Below are positions 1-4,401 of a DNA stretch of 4,401 nucleotides, piece after piece. Origin of the DNA: a virus. Taxonomy: Duplodnaviria; Heunggongvirae; Uroviricota; Caudoviricetes. A program made the position numbers and the translations under genes. Position 1 is the first letter of the stretch; each line of letters opens with the position of its first letter. A model generated the notes under the pieces. That model saw only the letters and a program-made list of their open reading frames with translations, made no database searches and had not been told where the DNA came from. The stretch lies in IMG/VR virus record IMGVR_UViG_2529292907_000005; one strand, written 5' to 3'.

Positions 1-1
1 A

Positions 2-2182
2 TCAGCCAGCGAGGCGGCAACTCATGCGACTGATGCTGCAGGCTCAGCACGTGCAGCCAGCACGTCAGCCGGACAGGCCGCGTCGTCGGCTCAGTCAGCG
101 TCTTCCAGCGCAGGAACGGCATCGACAAAGACCCGTGAAGCAGCAAAAAGTGCTGCTGCTGCAGAGTCATCAAAAAGCGCGGCAGCTACCAGCGCCAGTG
201 CCGCGAAAACGTCAGAAACGAATGCCGCAGCATCACAAAAATCGGCAGCCACTTCTGCATCCACAGCGACCACGAAGGCGTCAGAAGCTGCCACCTCGGC
301 ACGGGGTGCGGCGGCCTCAAAAGAGGCAGCGAAATCTTCAGAAACGAATGCATCATCAAGTGCCAGTAGTGCAGCTTCCTCGGCAACGGCGGCAGGAAAT
401 TCCGCGAAGGCGGCAAAAACGTCCGAGACGAACGCTAAGTCTTCTGAAACAGCAGCGGGACAGAGCGCCTCAGCTGCGGCAGGTTCAAAAACAGCGGCTG
501 CATTATCTGCCAGTGCCGCGTCAACAAGTGCCGGGCAGGCCTCAGCCAGTGCCACCGCCGCCGGAAAATCGGCAGAAAGCGCCGCATCATCCGCTTCAAC
601 AGCCACAACGAAGGCTGGCAAAGCCACTGAGCAAGCCACTGCAGCAGCGAGGTCTGCTTCTGCAGCAAAAACCTCTGAAACAAATGCAAAGACTTCAGCA
701 GACAATGCTGCTTCCTCTAAGGCGGCAGCCGCATCGTCAGCCAGTTCAGCGGCGTCATCGGCATCATCTGCGTCTGCTTCAAAAGATGAGGCGACCAGAC
801 AAGCGTCAGCAGCGAAAGGTAGTGCCACGACAGCAACAACGAAAGCATCAGAGGCGGCAGGCAGTGCGACGGCTGCATCTCAGAGCAAAGTTGCTGCTGA
901 ATCCGCGGCAACGCGCGCCGAGACAGCAGCAAAACGGGCAGAGGATATTGCATCCGCCGTGGCGCTGGAGGATGCGAGCACGACGAAAAAGGGGATAGTA
1001 CAGCTCAGCAGTGCGACCAACAGCACTTCCGAGTCACTGGCGGCAACGCCAAAAGCGGTTAAGGCGGTAATGGATGAAACGAACAAGAAAGCCCCATTAA
1101 ACAGCCCGGCACTGACCGGAACGCCAACAACACCAACTGCGCGACAGGGAACGAATAATACCCAAATCGCAAGCACGGCTTTCGTTATGGCTGCGATTGC
1201 CGCCCTTGTAGATTCGTCACCTGATGCACTGAACACGCTGAACGAGCTGGCTGCGGCGCTGGGCAACGACCCGAATTTTGCGACCACCATGACTAACGCG
1301 CTTGCGGGTAAGCAACCGAAAGATGCCACCCTGACGGCGCTGGCCGGACTTACTACTGCGGCAGGCAAGTTTCCGTATTTTACGGGGAATGATGTCGCCA
1401 GCCTGGCAACCCTGACAAAAGTCGGGCGGGATATTCTTGCGAAATCGACCGTTGCTGCCGTTATCGAATACCTCGGTTTACGAGAACTCGGCACAAGCGG
1501 GGAGAAAATACCGTTACTCAGTACAGCGAATACCTGGACTAATCGACAAACATTCAGCGGTGGCCTTTCAGGTGAACTATCCGGCAATGCTTCTACAGCT
1601 GCAAAATTAAAAACTGCCAGGAAAATAAGCAATGTGGCTTTTGATGGTTCCTCCGATATCACATTAAAAGCAAGTCATGTTGGTGCGTTTGCCTTAGGGA
1701 AAACAGGAAGCACCGTTGCGAATGATAAAGCAGTTGGATGGAACTGGAGTAGCGGAGCCTATAACGCAACTATTAGTGGTGCATCAACGTTAATTATTCA
1801 TTTTTATATGGGAGAAGGAAGTTGTCCTGCAGCTCAGTTTCGGATTAATTATAAAAATGGCGGTATTTTTTATCGTTCAGCCCGTGATGGTTATGGTTTT
1901 GAAGCCGACTGGTCAGAGTTTTACACCACGACCCGCAAACCCTCTGCGGGAGATGTTGGTGCATACACGCAGGCAGAATGTAACTCAAGGTTTATTACAG
2001 GTATTCGCCTTGGCGGTCTGTCATCTGTTCAGACATGGAATGGTCCCGGCTGGTCTGACAGGTCAGGTTATGTCGTTACGGGTTCAGTTAACGGAAACCG
2101 TGATGAATTAATTGATACAACTCAGGCAAGGCCAATTCAGTATTGCATTAATGGGACGTGGTATAACGCGGGGAGTATTTAA
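2..2182 (+). CDS. stf: Side tail fibre protein, 5'-partial: Ala/Ser/Thr-rich repeat shaft followed by a variable C-terminal (receptor-binding) domain; the start codon lies upstream of the window
   Basis: Frame 2 is open from the window edge to TAA at 2180..2182. The ORF track shows only 959..2182 because there is no in-frame ATG/GTG/TTG before the GTG at 959. My translation of 2..958 gives low-complexity repeats (...SAAKTSETNAKSSETAAGQSASAAAGSKTAAALSASAASTSAGQASASATAAGKSAESAASSASTATTKAG...), which I recognise as the lambdoid Stf-type shaft. The ORF continues through ...KFPYFTGNDVASLATLTKVGRDILAKSTVAAVIEYLGL and ends ...RPIQYCINGTWYNAGSI. Family assignment is from memory, not a search. Confidence 0.9.
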   Translation, partial: SASEAATHATDAAGSARAASTSAGQAASSAQSASSSAGTASTKTREAAKSAAAAESSKSAAATSASAAKTSETNAAASQKSAATSASTATTKASEAATSARGAAASKEAAKSSETNASSSASSAASSATAAGNSAKAAKTSETNAKSSETAAGQSASAAAGSKTAAALSASAASTSAGQASASATAAGKSAESAASSASTATTKAGKATEQATAAARSASAAKTSETNAKTSADNAASSKAAAASSASSAASSASSASASKDEATRQASAAKGSATTATTKASEAAGSATAASQSKVAAESAATRAETAAKRAEDIASAVALEDASTTKKGIVQLSSATNSTSESLAATPKAVKAVMDETNKKAPLNSPALTGTPTTPTARQGTNNTQIASTAFVMAAIAALVDSSPDALNTLNELAAALGNDPNFATTMTNALAGKQPKDATLTALAGLTTAAGKFPYFTGNDVASLATLTKVGRDILAKSTVAAVIEYLGLRELGTSGEKIPLLSTANTWTNRQTFSGGLSGELSGNASTAAKLKTARKISNVAFDGSSDITLKASHVGAFALGKTGSTVANDKAVGWNWSSGAYNATISGASTLIIHFYMGEGSCPAAQFRINYKNGGIFYRSARDGYGFEADWSEFYTTTRKPSAGDVGAYTQAECNSRFITGIRLGGLSSVQTWNGPGWSDRSGYVVTGSVNGNRDELIDTTQARPIQYCINGTWYNAGSI
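195..690 (+). repeat. Degenerate in-frame repeats inside the stf shaft region, built on a ~21-nt unit encoding K-[TS]-S-E-T-N-A
   Basis: Four copies of the motif AAA-[AT]C[GTC]-TC[ACT]-GA[AG]-AC[GA]-AA[TC]-GC are seen near 196, 331, 417 and 668 (gcgaaaacgtcagaaacgaatgc, gcgaaatcttcagaaacgaatgc, gcaaaaacgtccgagacgaacgc, gcaaaaacctctgaaacaaatgc). They sit within a longer Ala/Ser-rich low-complexity region spanning about 1..960. Confidence 0.6.
1222..1481 (+). repeat. Left arm of a long inverted repeat (partner 4142..4401), lying in the stf constant region just outside the crossover site
   Basis: Direct comparison of + 1222..1481 with the reverse complement of 4142..4401 shows the inner 116 bp (1366..1481 vs 4257..4142) identical and the outer 144 bp differing at about nine positions by eye. 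Homology stops abruptly at 1482 (cGAgaaCtCg vs cAGgaaAtGg). Confidence 0.9.
1461..1486 (+). other. Putative serine-invertase crossover site (gix/pix/cix/hix-like), left copy, with core dinucleotide at 1473..1474
   Basis: TTATCGAATACC-TC-GGTTTACGAGAA is an imperfect 12-2-12 palindrome matching the TTATC..AAACC-NN-GGTTT..GATAA pattern of DNA-invertase sites as I recall them. It lies exactly at the boundary between flank homology and the divergent cassette. Confidence 0.7.
2168..2175 (+). promoter_or_regulatory. Ribosome-binding site for tfa (GCGGGGAG), about 9 nt upstream of the ATG; translationally coupled to stf (stop at 2180..2182, start at 2185)
   Basis: Purine-rich GGGGAG at 2170..2175 sits at canonical spacing from the ATG at 2185..2187. 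Confidence 0.55.
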
Positions 2183-2184
2183 TT

Positions 2185-2718
2185 ATGCAGCACTTAAAAA
2201 ACATTACTGCTGGCAATCCTAAAACAAAAGAGCAATACCAGCTAACAAAGCAATTTAACATCAAATGGCTTTATTCAGATGATGGAAAAAACTGGTATGA
2301 GGAACAAAAGAATTTCCAGCCAGACACATTGAAAATGGCCTATGACCATAACGGCGTTATTATTTGTATTGAAAAGGATGTTTCAGCAATTAATCCGGAA
2401 GGCGCAAGCGTCGTTGAATTACCTGATATTACAGCAAATCGCCGTGCTGACATTTCGGGTAAATGGATGTTCAAAGATGGCGTAGTGGTAAAGCGAACTT
2501 ATACCGAGGAAGAGCAGAGGCAGCAGGCGGAAAATGAAAAGCAAAGCCTGCTACAGCTCGTCAGGGATAAAACCCAGCTATGGGACTCACAGCTACGGCT
2601 GGGCATCATTTCCGACGAGAATAAACAAAAATTAACAGAGTGGATGCTCTTTGCGCAGAAAGTCGAATCTACAGACACTTCCAGCCTGCCAGTAACGTTT
2701 CCCGAACAACCTGAATGA
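2185..2718 (+). CDS. tfa: Tail fibre assembly protein (Tfa-type chaperone), 177 aa
   Basis: Intact ORF from the track, starting 2 nt after the stf stop with a good RBS. The protein ([22 protein letters not shown]...[30 protein letters not shown]...) matches my memory of enterobacterial phage Tfa proteins, and its position immediately downstream of a tail fibre gene fits. Confidence 0.9.
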   Translation: MQHLKNITAGNPKTKEQYQLTKQFNIKWLYSDDGKNWYEEQKNFQPDTLKMAYDHNGVIICIEKDVSAINPEGASVVELPDITANRRADISGKWMFKDGVVVKRTYTEEEQRQQAENEKQSLLQLVRDKTQLWDSQLRLGIISDENKQKLTEWMLFAQKVESTDTSSLPVTFPEQPE

Positions 2719-2721
2719 GAC

Positions 2722-2748
2722 AAGGCCCGCTATCGGGCCTTAATTTTT
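2722..2748 (+). terminator. Intrinsic terminator hairpin between the convergent tfa genes (8-bp GC-rich stem AAGGCCCG / CGGGCCTT, 4-nt loop, then AATTTTT)
   Basis: Perfect inverted repeat at 2722..2729 and 2734..2741 followed by a T-run at 2744..2748, located in the 28-bp gap between the tfa stop (2716..2718) and the tfa' stop (2747..2749). The U-tract is good only for the + strand direction. Confidence 0.6.
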
Positions 2749-3273
2749 ATTCAGGCTTTTGTGGCCATTCGGGATTTGCTGTATCCACACGGCTGACCAG
2801 AACGCTGTAGCGTTCCCATGACTCCAGTCGTGCGCGCTCCTCATCCGTCGCCATGTTCAGCCTGACAGCGCGTTCCAGTGGCTGGATAACTGATTCAGCT
2901 TCGGAAAGTAATGCGGCCTTTTGTGATTTGGCCTGTTGTTGCTGTTCGTCTGCCGTATAAATCCGCTTAACTACAGCCCCGTCCTTAAACATCCACTTAC
3001 CTGAATCATCGGCACGGCGATTAGCTGTAATATCAGGAACTTCAACGACGCTATAGCCTTCAGGGTTAAGCGTGGAGGCATCTTTGGTGATGGCGACAAT
3101 AATATTATTCTCGTCATAAAGAATTTTTATTGTGTCTTCCTGAAAGTTCTTTAATTCCTCGTACCAGTTTTTCCCATCTTCTGACCACAACCAGATAACA
3201 TCAAAATTCTTTGTTAGCTGATATTGCTCTTTTGTTTTAGGATTGCCAGCAGTAATGTTTTTAAATGCTGCAT
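2747..3273 (-). CDS. tfa: Second tail fibre assembly protein (tfa'), frame-disrupted as sequenced: the ATG at 3273..3271 encodes MQHLK, then a one-base-shorter poly-A tract shifts the frame (stop at 3216..3214); the homologous frame is open from 3190 to the stop at 2749..2747
   Basis: The reverse complement of 3273..3250 is ATGCAGCATTTAAAAACATTACTG, against ATGCAGCACTTAAAAAACATTACTG in the + copy at 2185. The other frame reads ...[36 protein letters not shown]... and matches the track ORF 2747..3190, whose listed start is a TTG. The C-terminal part (...[35 protein letters not shown]...[30 protein letters not shown]) is Tfa-like. Confidence 0.8.
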
Positions 3274-3276
3274 GAT

Positions 3277-4092
3277 TTATACCTGTGCAACGTTATACCA
3301 TGTGCCATTGATGTATTTTTGTATTGGTCTGAACACAGCCGGATCATCGCCATCAACTTCGCCGACAATGCCAAGCCCCGTAATTGCATGGCCTGATTTT
3401 TCATACATCACGCCTCTTTGCATAGTTTGAACAACACGCGTGCCAAGTCTGACATCTCTCACATAGCGTGAATCAAAATTCCCCCAGTTGCTGGGTTGTA
3501 TCTGACCGTTTACAGCAAATATCACCGAGTTATCTGTATTTCGCTGACTATAGAAATGCCAGCCTGAATCATCACCAAGCTCTGCAACAGTTGGTCTTGA
3601 TGAAGCGCCCCATAAATTAAACCCTACGTTCTTCGTGGAGTTGTTGGAGCTGGATAGCGTGAATTTTTTACCATCCCCAGCCTGAATATTTTTAAAAGCA
3701 ATAGCCACTCCATTCTGAAAGCGGAATACACGCTGACTATTAGCATAAACATCAAGAATACCGTCTCCATTCTGTTTAAATCCGGTATCATTATCACCAA
3801 GAACAATAGAGCTACCACCTAACGCATTCGTCGTACCAACTCCAAGGCTGCCATTAATGACGGCATTAACAAGAATATTTAGCGCATCCCATTTCAGCGT
3901 CATCAGGTCTTTTGTTGTGGTGCTTTGTTTGCTTCTCCATTTGAAATATTCATTGCCGTTGTCGCCTGTTTCAAACCACATGTATGAATCAGTGTCACCA
4001 TCGGCATCATTTTTAAATCCAATCTTCGCCCAGTCAGTATTTCGAATCCAGGCAAGGATTGAGTCATTTTCAAAAGTAAGCCCACCGGACAA
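3277..4092 (-). CDS. Alternative tail-fibre C-terminal variable domain (inverted cassette); the frame is open upstream to 4116 but is not in frame with the fibre constant region as sequenced
   Basis: Track ORF of 271 aa, whose listed start is a TTG at 4092..4090, ending ...[17 protein letters not shown] with the same C-terminal motif as the + strand fibre. Upstream in this frame it reads RRAKNGDTL before a stop at 4119..4117. It is followed 3 nt later by the tfa' ATG. Confidence 0.8.
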
Positions 4093-4401
4093 AGTATCGC
4101 CATTTTTTGCACGGCGTTACCAGCCCTGTTTACCATTTCCTGTAAACCGAGGTATTCGATAACGGCAGCAACGGTCGATTTCGCAAGAATATCCCGCCCG
4201 ACTTTTGTCAGGGTTGCCAGGCTGGCGACATCATTCCCCGTAAAATACGGAAACTTGTCTGCCGCAGTAGCAAGCCCGGCCAGCGCCGTCAGGGTGGCAT
4301 CTTTCGGTTGCTTACCCGCAAGCGCGTTAGTCATGGTGGTCGCAAAATTCGGGTCGTTTCCCAGCGCCGCCGCTAACTCGTTCAGCGTATTCAGTGCGTC
4401 A
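3900..4401 (-). CDS. Inward-reading tail-fibre constant-region copy, 5'-partial (continues beyond the right edge); it reads through the crossover site and, because of the frame problem at 4103..4108, runs into a stop at 3902..3900
   Basis: The reverse complement of 4401..4142 encodes DALNTLNELAAALGNDPNFATTMTNALAGKQPKDATLTALAGLATAADKFPYFTGNDVASLATLTKVGRDILAKSTVAAVIEYLGL, near-identical to + strand residues encoded at 1222..1481. It then continues QEMVNRAGNAVQK and an out-of-frame tail (MAILCPVG...QQKT*). Confidence 0.65.
4137..4162 (-). other. Putative serine-invertase crossover site, right copy, with core dinucleotide at 4149..4150
   Basis: The + strand reads TTCCTGTAAACC-GA-GGTATTCGATAA; the minus strand reads TTATCGAATACC-TC-GGTTTACAGGAA. 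It has the same outer half-site and core as the left site and differs at 2 positions in the inner half-site. My recollection is that it is very close to the Mu gix sequence. Confidence 0.7.
4142..4401 (-). repeat. Right arm of the long inverted repeat (partner 1222..1481); it reaches the window edge, so its true length is unknown
   Basis: See the left arm: 116 bp identical plus 144 bp with about nine mismatches. Confidence 0.9.

What the first reader, a model, noticed from the sequence alone, without database searches (positions are those of the whole stretch)
4095..4120. Alternative fibre tip is out of frame with the constant region at a T6/A6 homopolymer
On the minus strand the constant-region frame reads ...AVQK through GTGCAAAAAATGGCG (+ strand T-run 4103..4108) and then continues as out-of-frame sequence to a stop at 3902..3900. 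The recognisable fibre-tip sequence [15 protein letters not shown]... is in the -1 frame. One extra A would give ...[12 protein letters not shown]..., a continuous fibre. As sequenced, the alternative fibre would be truncated. This could be a homopolymer sequencing error, real decay of a cassette that is no longer flipped into use, or slippage-dependent expression: a -1 slip on the Lys AAA codon in the tract would restore exactly the expected protein.
Basis: seen in the sequence. Interest (0 to 1): 0.6.

Follow-up and report, generated by a model that had tools for sequence, protein, structure and literature searches.

The report
One-base homopolymer loss in fibre tip
A phage tail-fibre tip in this short draft contig is out of frame because a run of seven A's, in frame in every relative examined, is six here; this is most likely a sequencing miscall or a very recent mutation, not a designed switch.

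Summary
On the minus strand the frame runs ...AVIEYLGLQEMVNRAGNAVQK into the A6 tract (+ strand T6, 4103-4108). It then reads 66 out-of-frame residues to tandem TGA stops at 3905-3900. Adding one A gives a 374-aa reading that matches P2 gpH residues 296-669 at 93% identity with no gaps.

The tract lies 41 nt inside a Mu-G/Pin-type invertible segment. Its gix-like crossover sites are at 1461-1486 and 4137-4162.

No relative has A6. Of 153 viral and metagenome matches, 106 have A7, 45 have AAAAGAA (synonymous Lys AAG) and 2 have AAAAAAC. All are in frame. No complete E. coli genome matches the A6 80-mer exactly.

The partner assembly gene tfa' carries a second -1 contraction (T5 at 3258-3262, T6 in relatives). 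These two indels are the only differences from the closest finished genome over 2,062 nt. Both truncated products occur only in this contig, a 4.4-kb draft WGS contig.

My reading is a one-off contraction: a homopolymer under-call (about 0.6) or a real recent slippage mutation (about 0.35). Programmed slippage or phase variation is disfavoured: the tract is short and not conserved, there is no tandem-slip heptamer, and there is no downstream RNA structure. Interest is low.

The parts
2..2182 (+). Side tail fibre gene (lambdoid Stf type, Ala/Ser-rich shaft), open from the contig start, with the tip in the expressed orientation
   Evidence: The frame is open from base 2 to the stop at 2182. It is 98% identical to the 'prophage tail fiber N-terminal domain-containing protein' of NCTC86 over 1-1963.
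1461..1486 (-). Left crossover site (gix/pix-like 26-mer TTCTCGTAAACCGAGGTATTCGATAA), central dinucleotide at 1473-1474
   Evidence: Pattern search gave 2 matches against 0 expected. It aligns with the annotated Mu G-segment boundaries.
2185..2718 (+). Tail fibre assembly gene tfa (intact, 177 aa)
   Evidence: Pfam Caudo_TAP, E 1.8e-36.
2747..3271 (-). Second tail fibre assembly gene tfa' (P2 gpG-like). The ATG is at 3271-3269 and the gene is frameshifted after codon 5
   Evidence: The 147-aa remnant 2747-3190 matches Caudo_TAP at E 2.5e-36. The start region aligns to relatives with one base missing.
3258..3262 (-). T5 (A5 on the minus strand) where relatives have A6, or AAAGAA in P2 G. This is the second -1 contraction
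3277..4101 (-). Fibre tip of P2 gpH type ([14 protein letters not shown]...NVAQV), open but out of frame with the sequence upstream
   Evidence: After repair it is 93% identical to P2 gpH. 1800 homologues have E<=1e-20, the best 120 at 91-98% identity.
3900..4102 (-). Out-of-frame read-through (66 codons) ending in tandem TGA TGA at 3905-3900
4103..4108 (-). The A6 tract (T6 on the + strand). It is CAA AAA AAT (Gln-Lys-Asn) minus one A
4137..4162 (+). Right crossover site (TTCCTGTAAACCGAGGTATTCGATAA), central dinucleotide at 4149-4150. The tract lies 41 nt inside the invertible segment
4163..4401 (-). Second copy of the fibre constant region, outside the crossover site and open to the contig end. 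It is the outer part of the 265-nt inverted repeat 1222-1486 / 4137-4401 (96% complementary)
   Evidence: It is 100% identical to the H constant region of the P2-like element in strain 15A. Lambdoid relatives have a recombinase remnant here instead.

Best explanation
The tract is an ordinary piece of coding sequence: CAA-AAA-AAT, Gln-Lys-Asn, in the linker just upstream of a P2 gpH-type receptor-binding tip. In this one record it is a base short. It lies inside a Gin/Pin-type invertible segment, 41 nt from the crossover point, so as written the tip cannot be joined in frame to either constant region. It is not a designed slippery site. The most likely origin is a homopolymer under-call in this small draft contig. 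A second under-call of the same kind disrupts the neighbouring tfa' gene. Shown: the frames, the repair, the A7/AAG state of all relatives, the uniqueness of the lesion, and the second lesion. Inferred: that the cause is technical rather than mutational.
For: - Over window 2340-4401 (2,062 nt), the closest finished genome (E. coli O111:H21 15A) differs only by two single-T gaps. Both are at the longest T runs of that stretch (T7->T6 at 4103-4108, T6->T5 at 3258-3262), and there are no substitutions. Length-only differences at homopolymers are the signature of flow-based or long-read miscalls (general knowledge; artefact concern stated in PMC4746626).
- The window is an entire 4,401-bp WGS draft contig, AIFW01000052.1 of GCA_000249615.2.
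- The two truncated products (208 aa and 147 aa) are encoded nowhere else in 153 billion indexed gene positions.
- All 153 viral and metagenome matches are in frame: 106 A7, 45 AAAAGAA, 2 AAAAAAC, and none A6 or A8.
- No complete E. coli genome matches the A6 80-mer exactly. Among about 68 listed records, all but two are one base longer than the window.
- 116 of 120 homologous proteins read ...NAVQK[N/T]GDTLSGGL in one frame.
Against: - I could not establish the sequencing platform or read depth of the assembly. If it is Illumina-only at good depth, a 6/7-mer miscall would be unusual, and two of them more so.
- Both lesions fall in the minus-strand gene pair, while three runs of 6 in the plus-strand genes are intact. 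This is what relaxed selection on an unexpressed cassette predicts, although by chance alone it has a probability of about 0.2.
- Frame-disrupting changes at or next to this tract do occur in finished genomes: strain 1442 and elppa5.
Confidence: 0.6

Rival explanations
1. These are real, recent replication-slippage mutations (pseudogenisation). The gene pair tfa'/tip is not under selection in this strain, either because it is a locked silent cassette or because it belongs to a defective prophage. The two longest A/T runs have each lost a base.
For: - Lambdoid relatives with the same stf carry only recombinase remnants of 59-72 aa, so their segments are locked and the silent cassettes can decay.
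- The silent cassette of strain 1442 is annotated as frameshifted, with a one-base loss immediately next to the same tract. elppa5 has A8 and a split gene.
- The indel rate rises with homopolymer length (PMC8510543).
- Both lesions are in the minus-strand genes only.
Against: - There are no substitutions in 2,062 nt alongside the two run indels. For mismatch-repair-proficient E. coli, substitutions over 2 kb should be far more frequent than indels at two particular 6-7-nt runs. This rests on my recollection of mutation-accumulation rates; the paper was not retrievable.
- The lesion is private to one draft contig.
- 1442 and elppa5 may themselves be long-read miscalls; elppa5 has another frameshifted gene next door.
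Confidence: 0.35
2. Slippage-dependent expression or phase variation. The A6 tract is kept out of frame on purpose. The fibre is made either by a -1 ribosomal slip of tRNA-Lys or by transcriptional slippage, or the tract toggles A6/A7 at the DNA level as a second switch on top of inversion.
For: The arithmetic works. Re-pairing of tRNA-Lys from AAA (4105-4103) to the overlapping AAA one base back, or one extra A in the mRNA, gives exactly ...[12 protein letters not shown].... Some background slippage on any A run is expected.
Against: - The out-of-frame state occurs in none of 153 related loci or 116 proteins. In 45 of the 153 loci the run is broken by a synonymous AAG, so the run itself is not conserved.
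- No length polymorphism was seen in short-read assemblies.
- The zero-frame codons CAA-AAA-ATG do not form an X XXY YYZ tandem-slip heptamer (read directly from the sequence).
- There is no downstream structure beyond chance: -13 kcal/mol, z -0.47.
- In most bacterial genomes, selection against transcriptional slippage appears only at about 9 A/T, and at 8 in some (PMC1088944).
- tfa' is also broken, so a rescued fibre would still lack an intact copy of its partner gene.
Confidence: 0.04

Closest known systems
Phage Mu G segment (S/U and S'/U' with gix sites and Gin); also P1/P7 C segment with Cin and e14 P segment with Pin
   Same: There are two inverted 26-bp crossover sites that match Mu gix at 24/26 (right site) and 22/26 (left site) positions. 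Between them lie two convergent pairs of fibre tip and tail-fibre-assembly gene. The crossover site lies in frame in the fibre gene (AVIEYLGL), so inversion swaps the C-terminal tip.
   Different: No invertase gene is in the contig. Beyond the right site there is a second copy of the constant region (at least 239 nt, to the contig end) instead of the invertase. One tip and its tfa are frameshifted as sequenced.
Phage P2 tail fibre gpH and assembly protein gpG
   Same: After repair, the minus-strand reading is 93% identical, without gaps, to gpH 296-669. The DNA of 2747-4401 is 88.5% identical to P2 G-H. P2 H has A7 at this very position and an in-frame gix-like sequence.
   Different: P2 itself has no invertible segment (no recombinase in the annotated region). 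Here the H-type tip sits inside one, and it is attached on the other side to a lambdoid Stf shaft.
Homopolymer frameshift artefacts and pseudogenes in draft bacterial genomes
   Same: It is a single-base length change at the longest A/T runs, private to one draft record, with no accompanying substitutions.
   Different: Nothing distinguishes it from this class. The only open question is whether it is technical or mutational.
dnaX-type programmed -1 ribosomal frameshifting (A AAA AAG) and transcriptional slippage at A9/T9 runs in IS elements
   Same: It is an A run decoded by tRNA-Lys, and a -1 shift gives the functional protein.
   Different: There is no tandem-slip heptamer in the zero frame, no stimulatory structure and no conservation of the shifted arrangement. 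The run is three bases shorter than those used for transcriptional slippage (PMC1088944).

Membership tests
Gin/Cin/Pin/Hin-type invertible tail-fibre segment | Two inverted 26-bp crossover sites with the conserved TTCNNGTAAACC-GA-GGTNTTNGATAA pattern | tested here: met
   Sites at 1461-1486 (-) and 4137-4162 (+), with 0 expected by chance. They align with the annotated Mu G-segment boundaries.
Gin/Cin/Pin/Hin-type invertible tail-fibre segment | Two alternative fibre C-termini, each with its own assembly gene, convergent between the sites | tested here: met
   Tip + tfa on the + strand and tip' + tfa' on the - strand. The second pair is frameshifted as sequenced.
Gin/Cin/Pin/Hin-type invertible tail-fibre segment | Serine invertase gene, with its enhancer, next to one crossover site | not testable with these tools
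   The contig ends 239 nt beyond the right site and holds fibre constant-region sequence there. Relatives have an intact recombinase (L002, L105) or a remnant (L005, L006, L107).
Gin/Cin/Pin/Hin-type invertible tail-fibre segment | Constant region on one side only, with a promoterless silent cassette on the other | tested here: not met
   A second constant-region copy lies outside the right site: inverted repeat 1222-1486 / 4137-4401, 96%. It is 100% identical to the H constant region in 15A.
P2 gpH-type fibre tip | Sequence similarity along the full length of the C-terminal half of gpH | tested here: met
   348/374 identities and 0 gaps after adding one A. Pfam PF21446 matches at E 1.5e-11.
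Programmed -1 ribosomal frameshift site | X XXY YYZ heptamer in the zero frame | tested here: not met
   The zero-frame codons are CAA AAA ATG. Only single-tRNA slippage on A-AAA is possible.
Programmed -1 ribosomal frameshift site | Downstream stimulatory RNA structure | tested here: not met
   For the 73 nt downstream: MFE -13 kcal/mol, z -0.47, and 60 of 200 shuffles fold as well.
Programmed -1 ribosomal frameshift site | Two-frame arrangement conserved in homologues | tested here: not met
   0 of 153 loci and 0 of 116 proteins show it.
Phase-variable homopolymer (contingency) locus | Tract length polymorphic among close relatives, with an uninterrupted run conserved | tested here: not met
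   106 A7, 45 AAAAGAA, 2 AAAAAAC and no A6/A8 in viral and metagenome contigs. Two deviants were seen among about 68 listed complete-genome records.

The most novel reading that the evidence does not exclude
The A6 (and the A5 in tfa') are real, and the strain still makes a small amount of full-length alternative fibre through background transcriptional or tRNA-Lys slippage on the run. The cassette would then be leaky rather than dead, and could revert to A7 at an appreciable rate. That would make it a crude second on/off layer on top of the inversion switch.
Probability: 0.03. Interest if true: 0.4.

Novelty: already known. Interest (0 to 1): 0.1.

Why it matters
It matters little for biology. 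Its main use is as an annotation caveat. The tip and tfa' in this record should not be counted as pseudogenes, nor as a recoding site, without read-level confirmation. The survey does give a clean negative result: the Gln-Lys-Asn A7 run shared by P2 H-type tips is not a conserved slippery element, since a third of relatives break it with AAG.

Tried and rejected
- I tried 40-42-nt megablast queries centred on the tract with T6, T8 and T7, to count tract lengths in complete E. coli genomes. All found nothing, including the T7 positive control, presumably because of low-complexity masking, so they are uninformative.
- The first genome-contig scan with the strict pattern found nothing. The relaxed second scan returned 19 matches in unrelated taxa with scattered spacings, which I read as chance matches, and I discarded them.
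- I tried to identify the strain and sequencing platform of GCA_000249615.2 from the literature (accession searches and the Hazen et al. 2012 DEC genome announcement). Nothing was held. My recollection that the AIF* accessions belong to that 2012 project is unverified and is not used as evidence.
- The E. coli mutation-accumulation paper I wanted for per-run indel rates was not retrievable. The rate argument is marked as memory-based.
- I considered that the frame assignment might be wrong, with an unrelated downstream frame. I rejected this because the repaired reading aligns without gaps to gpH and 116 of 120 homologues read straight through.
- I considered re-initiation at the TTG at 4092 (271-aa ORF) as a stand-alone product. 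I rejected it because it would lack the shaft and the attachment part, and no homologue of that form is a complete gene. The short homologues are annotated as partial or begin at the crossover site.

Full report
**What the window is**

The 4,401 bases are one complete WGS draft contig, AIFW01000052.1 of assembly GCA_000249615.2.

On the plus strand a side tail fibre gene is open from the contig start to 2182. Its Ala/Ser-rich shaft is 98% identical to the lambdoid 'prophage tail fiber N-terminal domain' protein of E. coli NCTC86. It is followed by an intact tail fibre assembly gene at 2185-2718 (Caudo_TAP).

On the minus strand lie a second assembly gene (tfa', ATG at 3271) and a second fibre tip (3277-4101). 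A further stretch of fibre coding sequence is open to the contig end.

Two 26-bp sites sit at 1461-1486 and 4137-4162, in inverted orientation, with none expected by chance. The right site matches the annotated gix boundaries of the Mu G segment at 24 of 26 positions and the left at 22 of 26. This is therefore a Mu-G / P1-C / e14-P type invertible fibre segment. The crossover point is the central GA at 4149-4150 and 1473-1474. The tract in question lies 41 nt inside the segment.

**Checking the observation**

The T6 run is at 4103-4108. The minus-strand frame coming from the constant region reads ...AVIEYLGLQEMVNRAGNAVQK. It then reads 66 unrelated residues to TGA at 3905-3903, followed directly by a second TGA at 3902-3900.

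The tip [14 protein letters not shown]...NVAQV is open one base back. Inserting one A gives a 374-residue reading that aligns to P2 gpH residues 296-669 with 348 identities and no gap, right to the C-terminus.

**What relatives have**

Four sources were compared.

- **Direct alignment.** The closest complete genome (O111:H21 strain 15A), a P2-like prophage of strain CUVET20-PYO2, and phage P2 itself all have A7 here.
- **Pattern scan.** I scanned with a pattern that allowed any tract from 4 to 10 bases.

| Tract (minus strand) | Matches (97 IMG/VR + 56 metagenome) | Frame |
|---|---|---|
| AAAAAAA (A7) | 106 | in frame |
| AAAAGAA (Lys AAG instead of AAA) | 45 | in frame |
| AAAAAAC | 2 | in frame |
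| A6 or A8 | 0 | n/a |

- **Proteins.** Of the 120 best homologous proteins, 116 read ...NAVQK(N/T)GDTLSGGL continuously.
- **Complete E. coli genomes.** None of 5,426 genomes matches the A6 80-mer exactly. Among about 68 listed records, all are one base longer than the window except two. Strain 1442 reads CAAAAAACGGCG, one base short, in a silent cassette that PGAP flags as frameshifted. Strain elppa5 has A8 and a split gene, with another frameshifted gene next door.

The normal state is therefore in-frame Gln-Lys-Asn. The homopolymer is not itself conserved, and the window is the only sequence with A6.

**A second lesion of the same kind**

Aligning the window with strain 15A over 998-4401 shows 26 substitutions, all left of 2340, and exactly two gaps: a missing T at 4103-4108 and a missing T at 3258-3262. 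The second gap turns TTA-AAA-AAC at codons 4-6 of tfa' into a frameshift that stops after 19 codons. Relatives have A6 there and P2 G has AAAGAA.

Over the last 2,062 nt the window therefore differs from a finished genome only by two homopolymer contractions, at a 7-run and a 6-run. The two truncated products that result (208 aa and 147 aa) are encoded by no other contig in the 153-billion-gene index.

**How to read this**

Three explanations were on the table.

*Programmed or regulated slippage* is the least likely, for these reasons:
- The shifted arrangement is absent from every relative, and a third of relatives break the run with a synonymous AAG.
- The zero-frame codons CAA-AAA-ATG do not make a tandem-slip heptamer.
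- The 73 nt downstream fold no better than shuffles (z -0.47).
- Runs used for, or selected against because of, transcriptional slippage in bacteria are about nine long, or eight in some species (PMC1088944).
- The partner tfa' is broken too.

The choice is then between *a technical miscall* and *a real, very recent slippage mutation*.

The pattern of two run-length changes and no substitutions in 2 kb, private to one small draft contig, is what homopolymer-prone sequencing produces. Under real mutation in a repair-proficient background, substitutions over 2 kb should greatly outnumber indels at two particular short runs. That rate argument rests on my memory of E. coli mutation-accumulation data. 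The held literature supports only the qualitative dependence of indel rate on run length (PMC8510543).

Several points weigh against the artefact reading:
- I could not find the platform of this assembly.
- Both lesions fall in the minus-strand gene pair, while three 6-runs in the plus-strand genes are intact, as relaxed selection would predict. The chance probability of that split is only about 0.2.
- Lambdoid relatives carry only recombinase remnants, so their silent cassettes are indeed free to decay.

I put the artefact at about 0.6, real mutation at about 0.35 and a functional slippage reading at a few per cent.

**A caveat on 'alternative cassette'**

In lambdoid relatives, similarity to the window stops at 4166 and a recombinase remnant follows. 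In the window, the sequence beyond the right crossover site is instead a second copy of the fibre constant region. It is 96% identical to 1222-1460 and 100% identical to the H gene of the P2-like element in 15A.

Window 1457-4401 is 99.2% identical to the whole invertible segment plus H constant region of a P2-like prophage in CUVET20-PYO2. There, this tip is the expressed one and the window's plus-strand tip is the silent one next to an intact recombinase.

The contig thus joins a lambdoid Stf shaft on the left to a P2-type H constant region on the right. That is either a real hybrid arrangement or an assembly path through a 2.7-kb segment shared by two prophages. Which gene is 'the' expressed one in this strain cannot be decided from 4.4 kb.

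**Comparison with the known, and verdict**

The segment works like the Mu G, P1 C and e14 P inversion systems, and the tip is a P2 gpH-type tip. Two membership features remain unsettled: the invertase gene was not testable here, and the expected one-sided constant region was tested and not met.

The frameshift itself belongs to the ordinary class of homopolymer frameshifts in draft genomes. Nothing here is new in kind. The finding is correct as an observation and low in interest. Its practical consequence is that this tip and tfa' should be neither annotated as pseudogenes nor proposed as recoding sites without read-level confirmation.

Noticed in passing
window 3258-3262 (tfa' start, ATG at 3271-3269): There is a second -1 homopolymer contraction. 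It is A5 on the minus strand where relatives have A6 (P2 G has AAAGAA), and it stops tfa' after 19 codons. The 147-aa ORF at 2747-3190 is the remnant.
   Followed up: yes
window 4163-4401 versus 1222-1460: A second copy of the fibre constant region lies outside the right crossover site, where lambdoid relatives have a recombinase remnant. The contig joins a lambdoid Stf shaft to a P2-type H constant region across one invertible segment. This is either a real inter-prophage hybrid or an assembly path through a repeat shared by two prophages.
   Followed up: partly
L001 (NZ_CP077477.1, E. coli O111:H21 15A) 1-4211 and 6874-11084: Two 100% identical inverted arms of at least 4,211 bp (V-W-J-I-H constant region) end exactly at the crossover sites and flank a single invertible segment, so both tips sit on full-length H genes. 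This could be a real head-to-head arrangement. It could also be a long-read assembly artefact from a culture that holds both orientations.
   Followed up: partly
L105 (NZ_CP184048.1, strain 1442) about 3040-3060; L106 (NZ_CP083503.1, elppa5) about 3040-3060: Two finished genomes have frame-disrupting changes at the same spot. Strain 1442 reads CAAAAAACGGCG, one base short, in a silent cassette beside an intact recombinase. Strain elppa5 has A8 and a split fibre gene, with a frameshifted baseplate gene nearby.
   Followed up: partly
L005, L006, L107 (lambdoid prophages of strains 90-9280, L1_E925, NCTC86): The recombinase next to the invertible fibre segment is reduced to 59-72-aa remnants, so these segments are probably locked. 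In NCTC86 the expressed stf is itself split into two CDS.
   Followed up: no
L003 (phage P2 gene H) about 3868-3893: P2 H carries an in-frame gix-like 26-mer (TTCCTGTAAACCGAGATATTCGATAA), one mismatch from the window's right site, although no recombinase is annotated in the fetched P2 region. It marks the point where fibre tips are exchanged between phages.
   Followed up: no
window 24-998 (+), 91-828 (-), 880-1662 (-): Long ORFs in the wrong frames across the Ala/Ser-rich shaft repeats were called as genes in the public gene index (245 aa and 68 aa). They look like products of the biased composition rather than genes.
   Followed up: no
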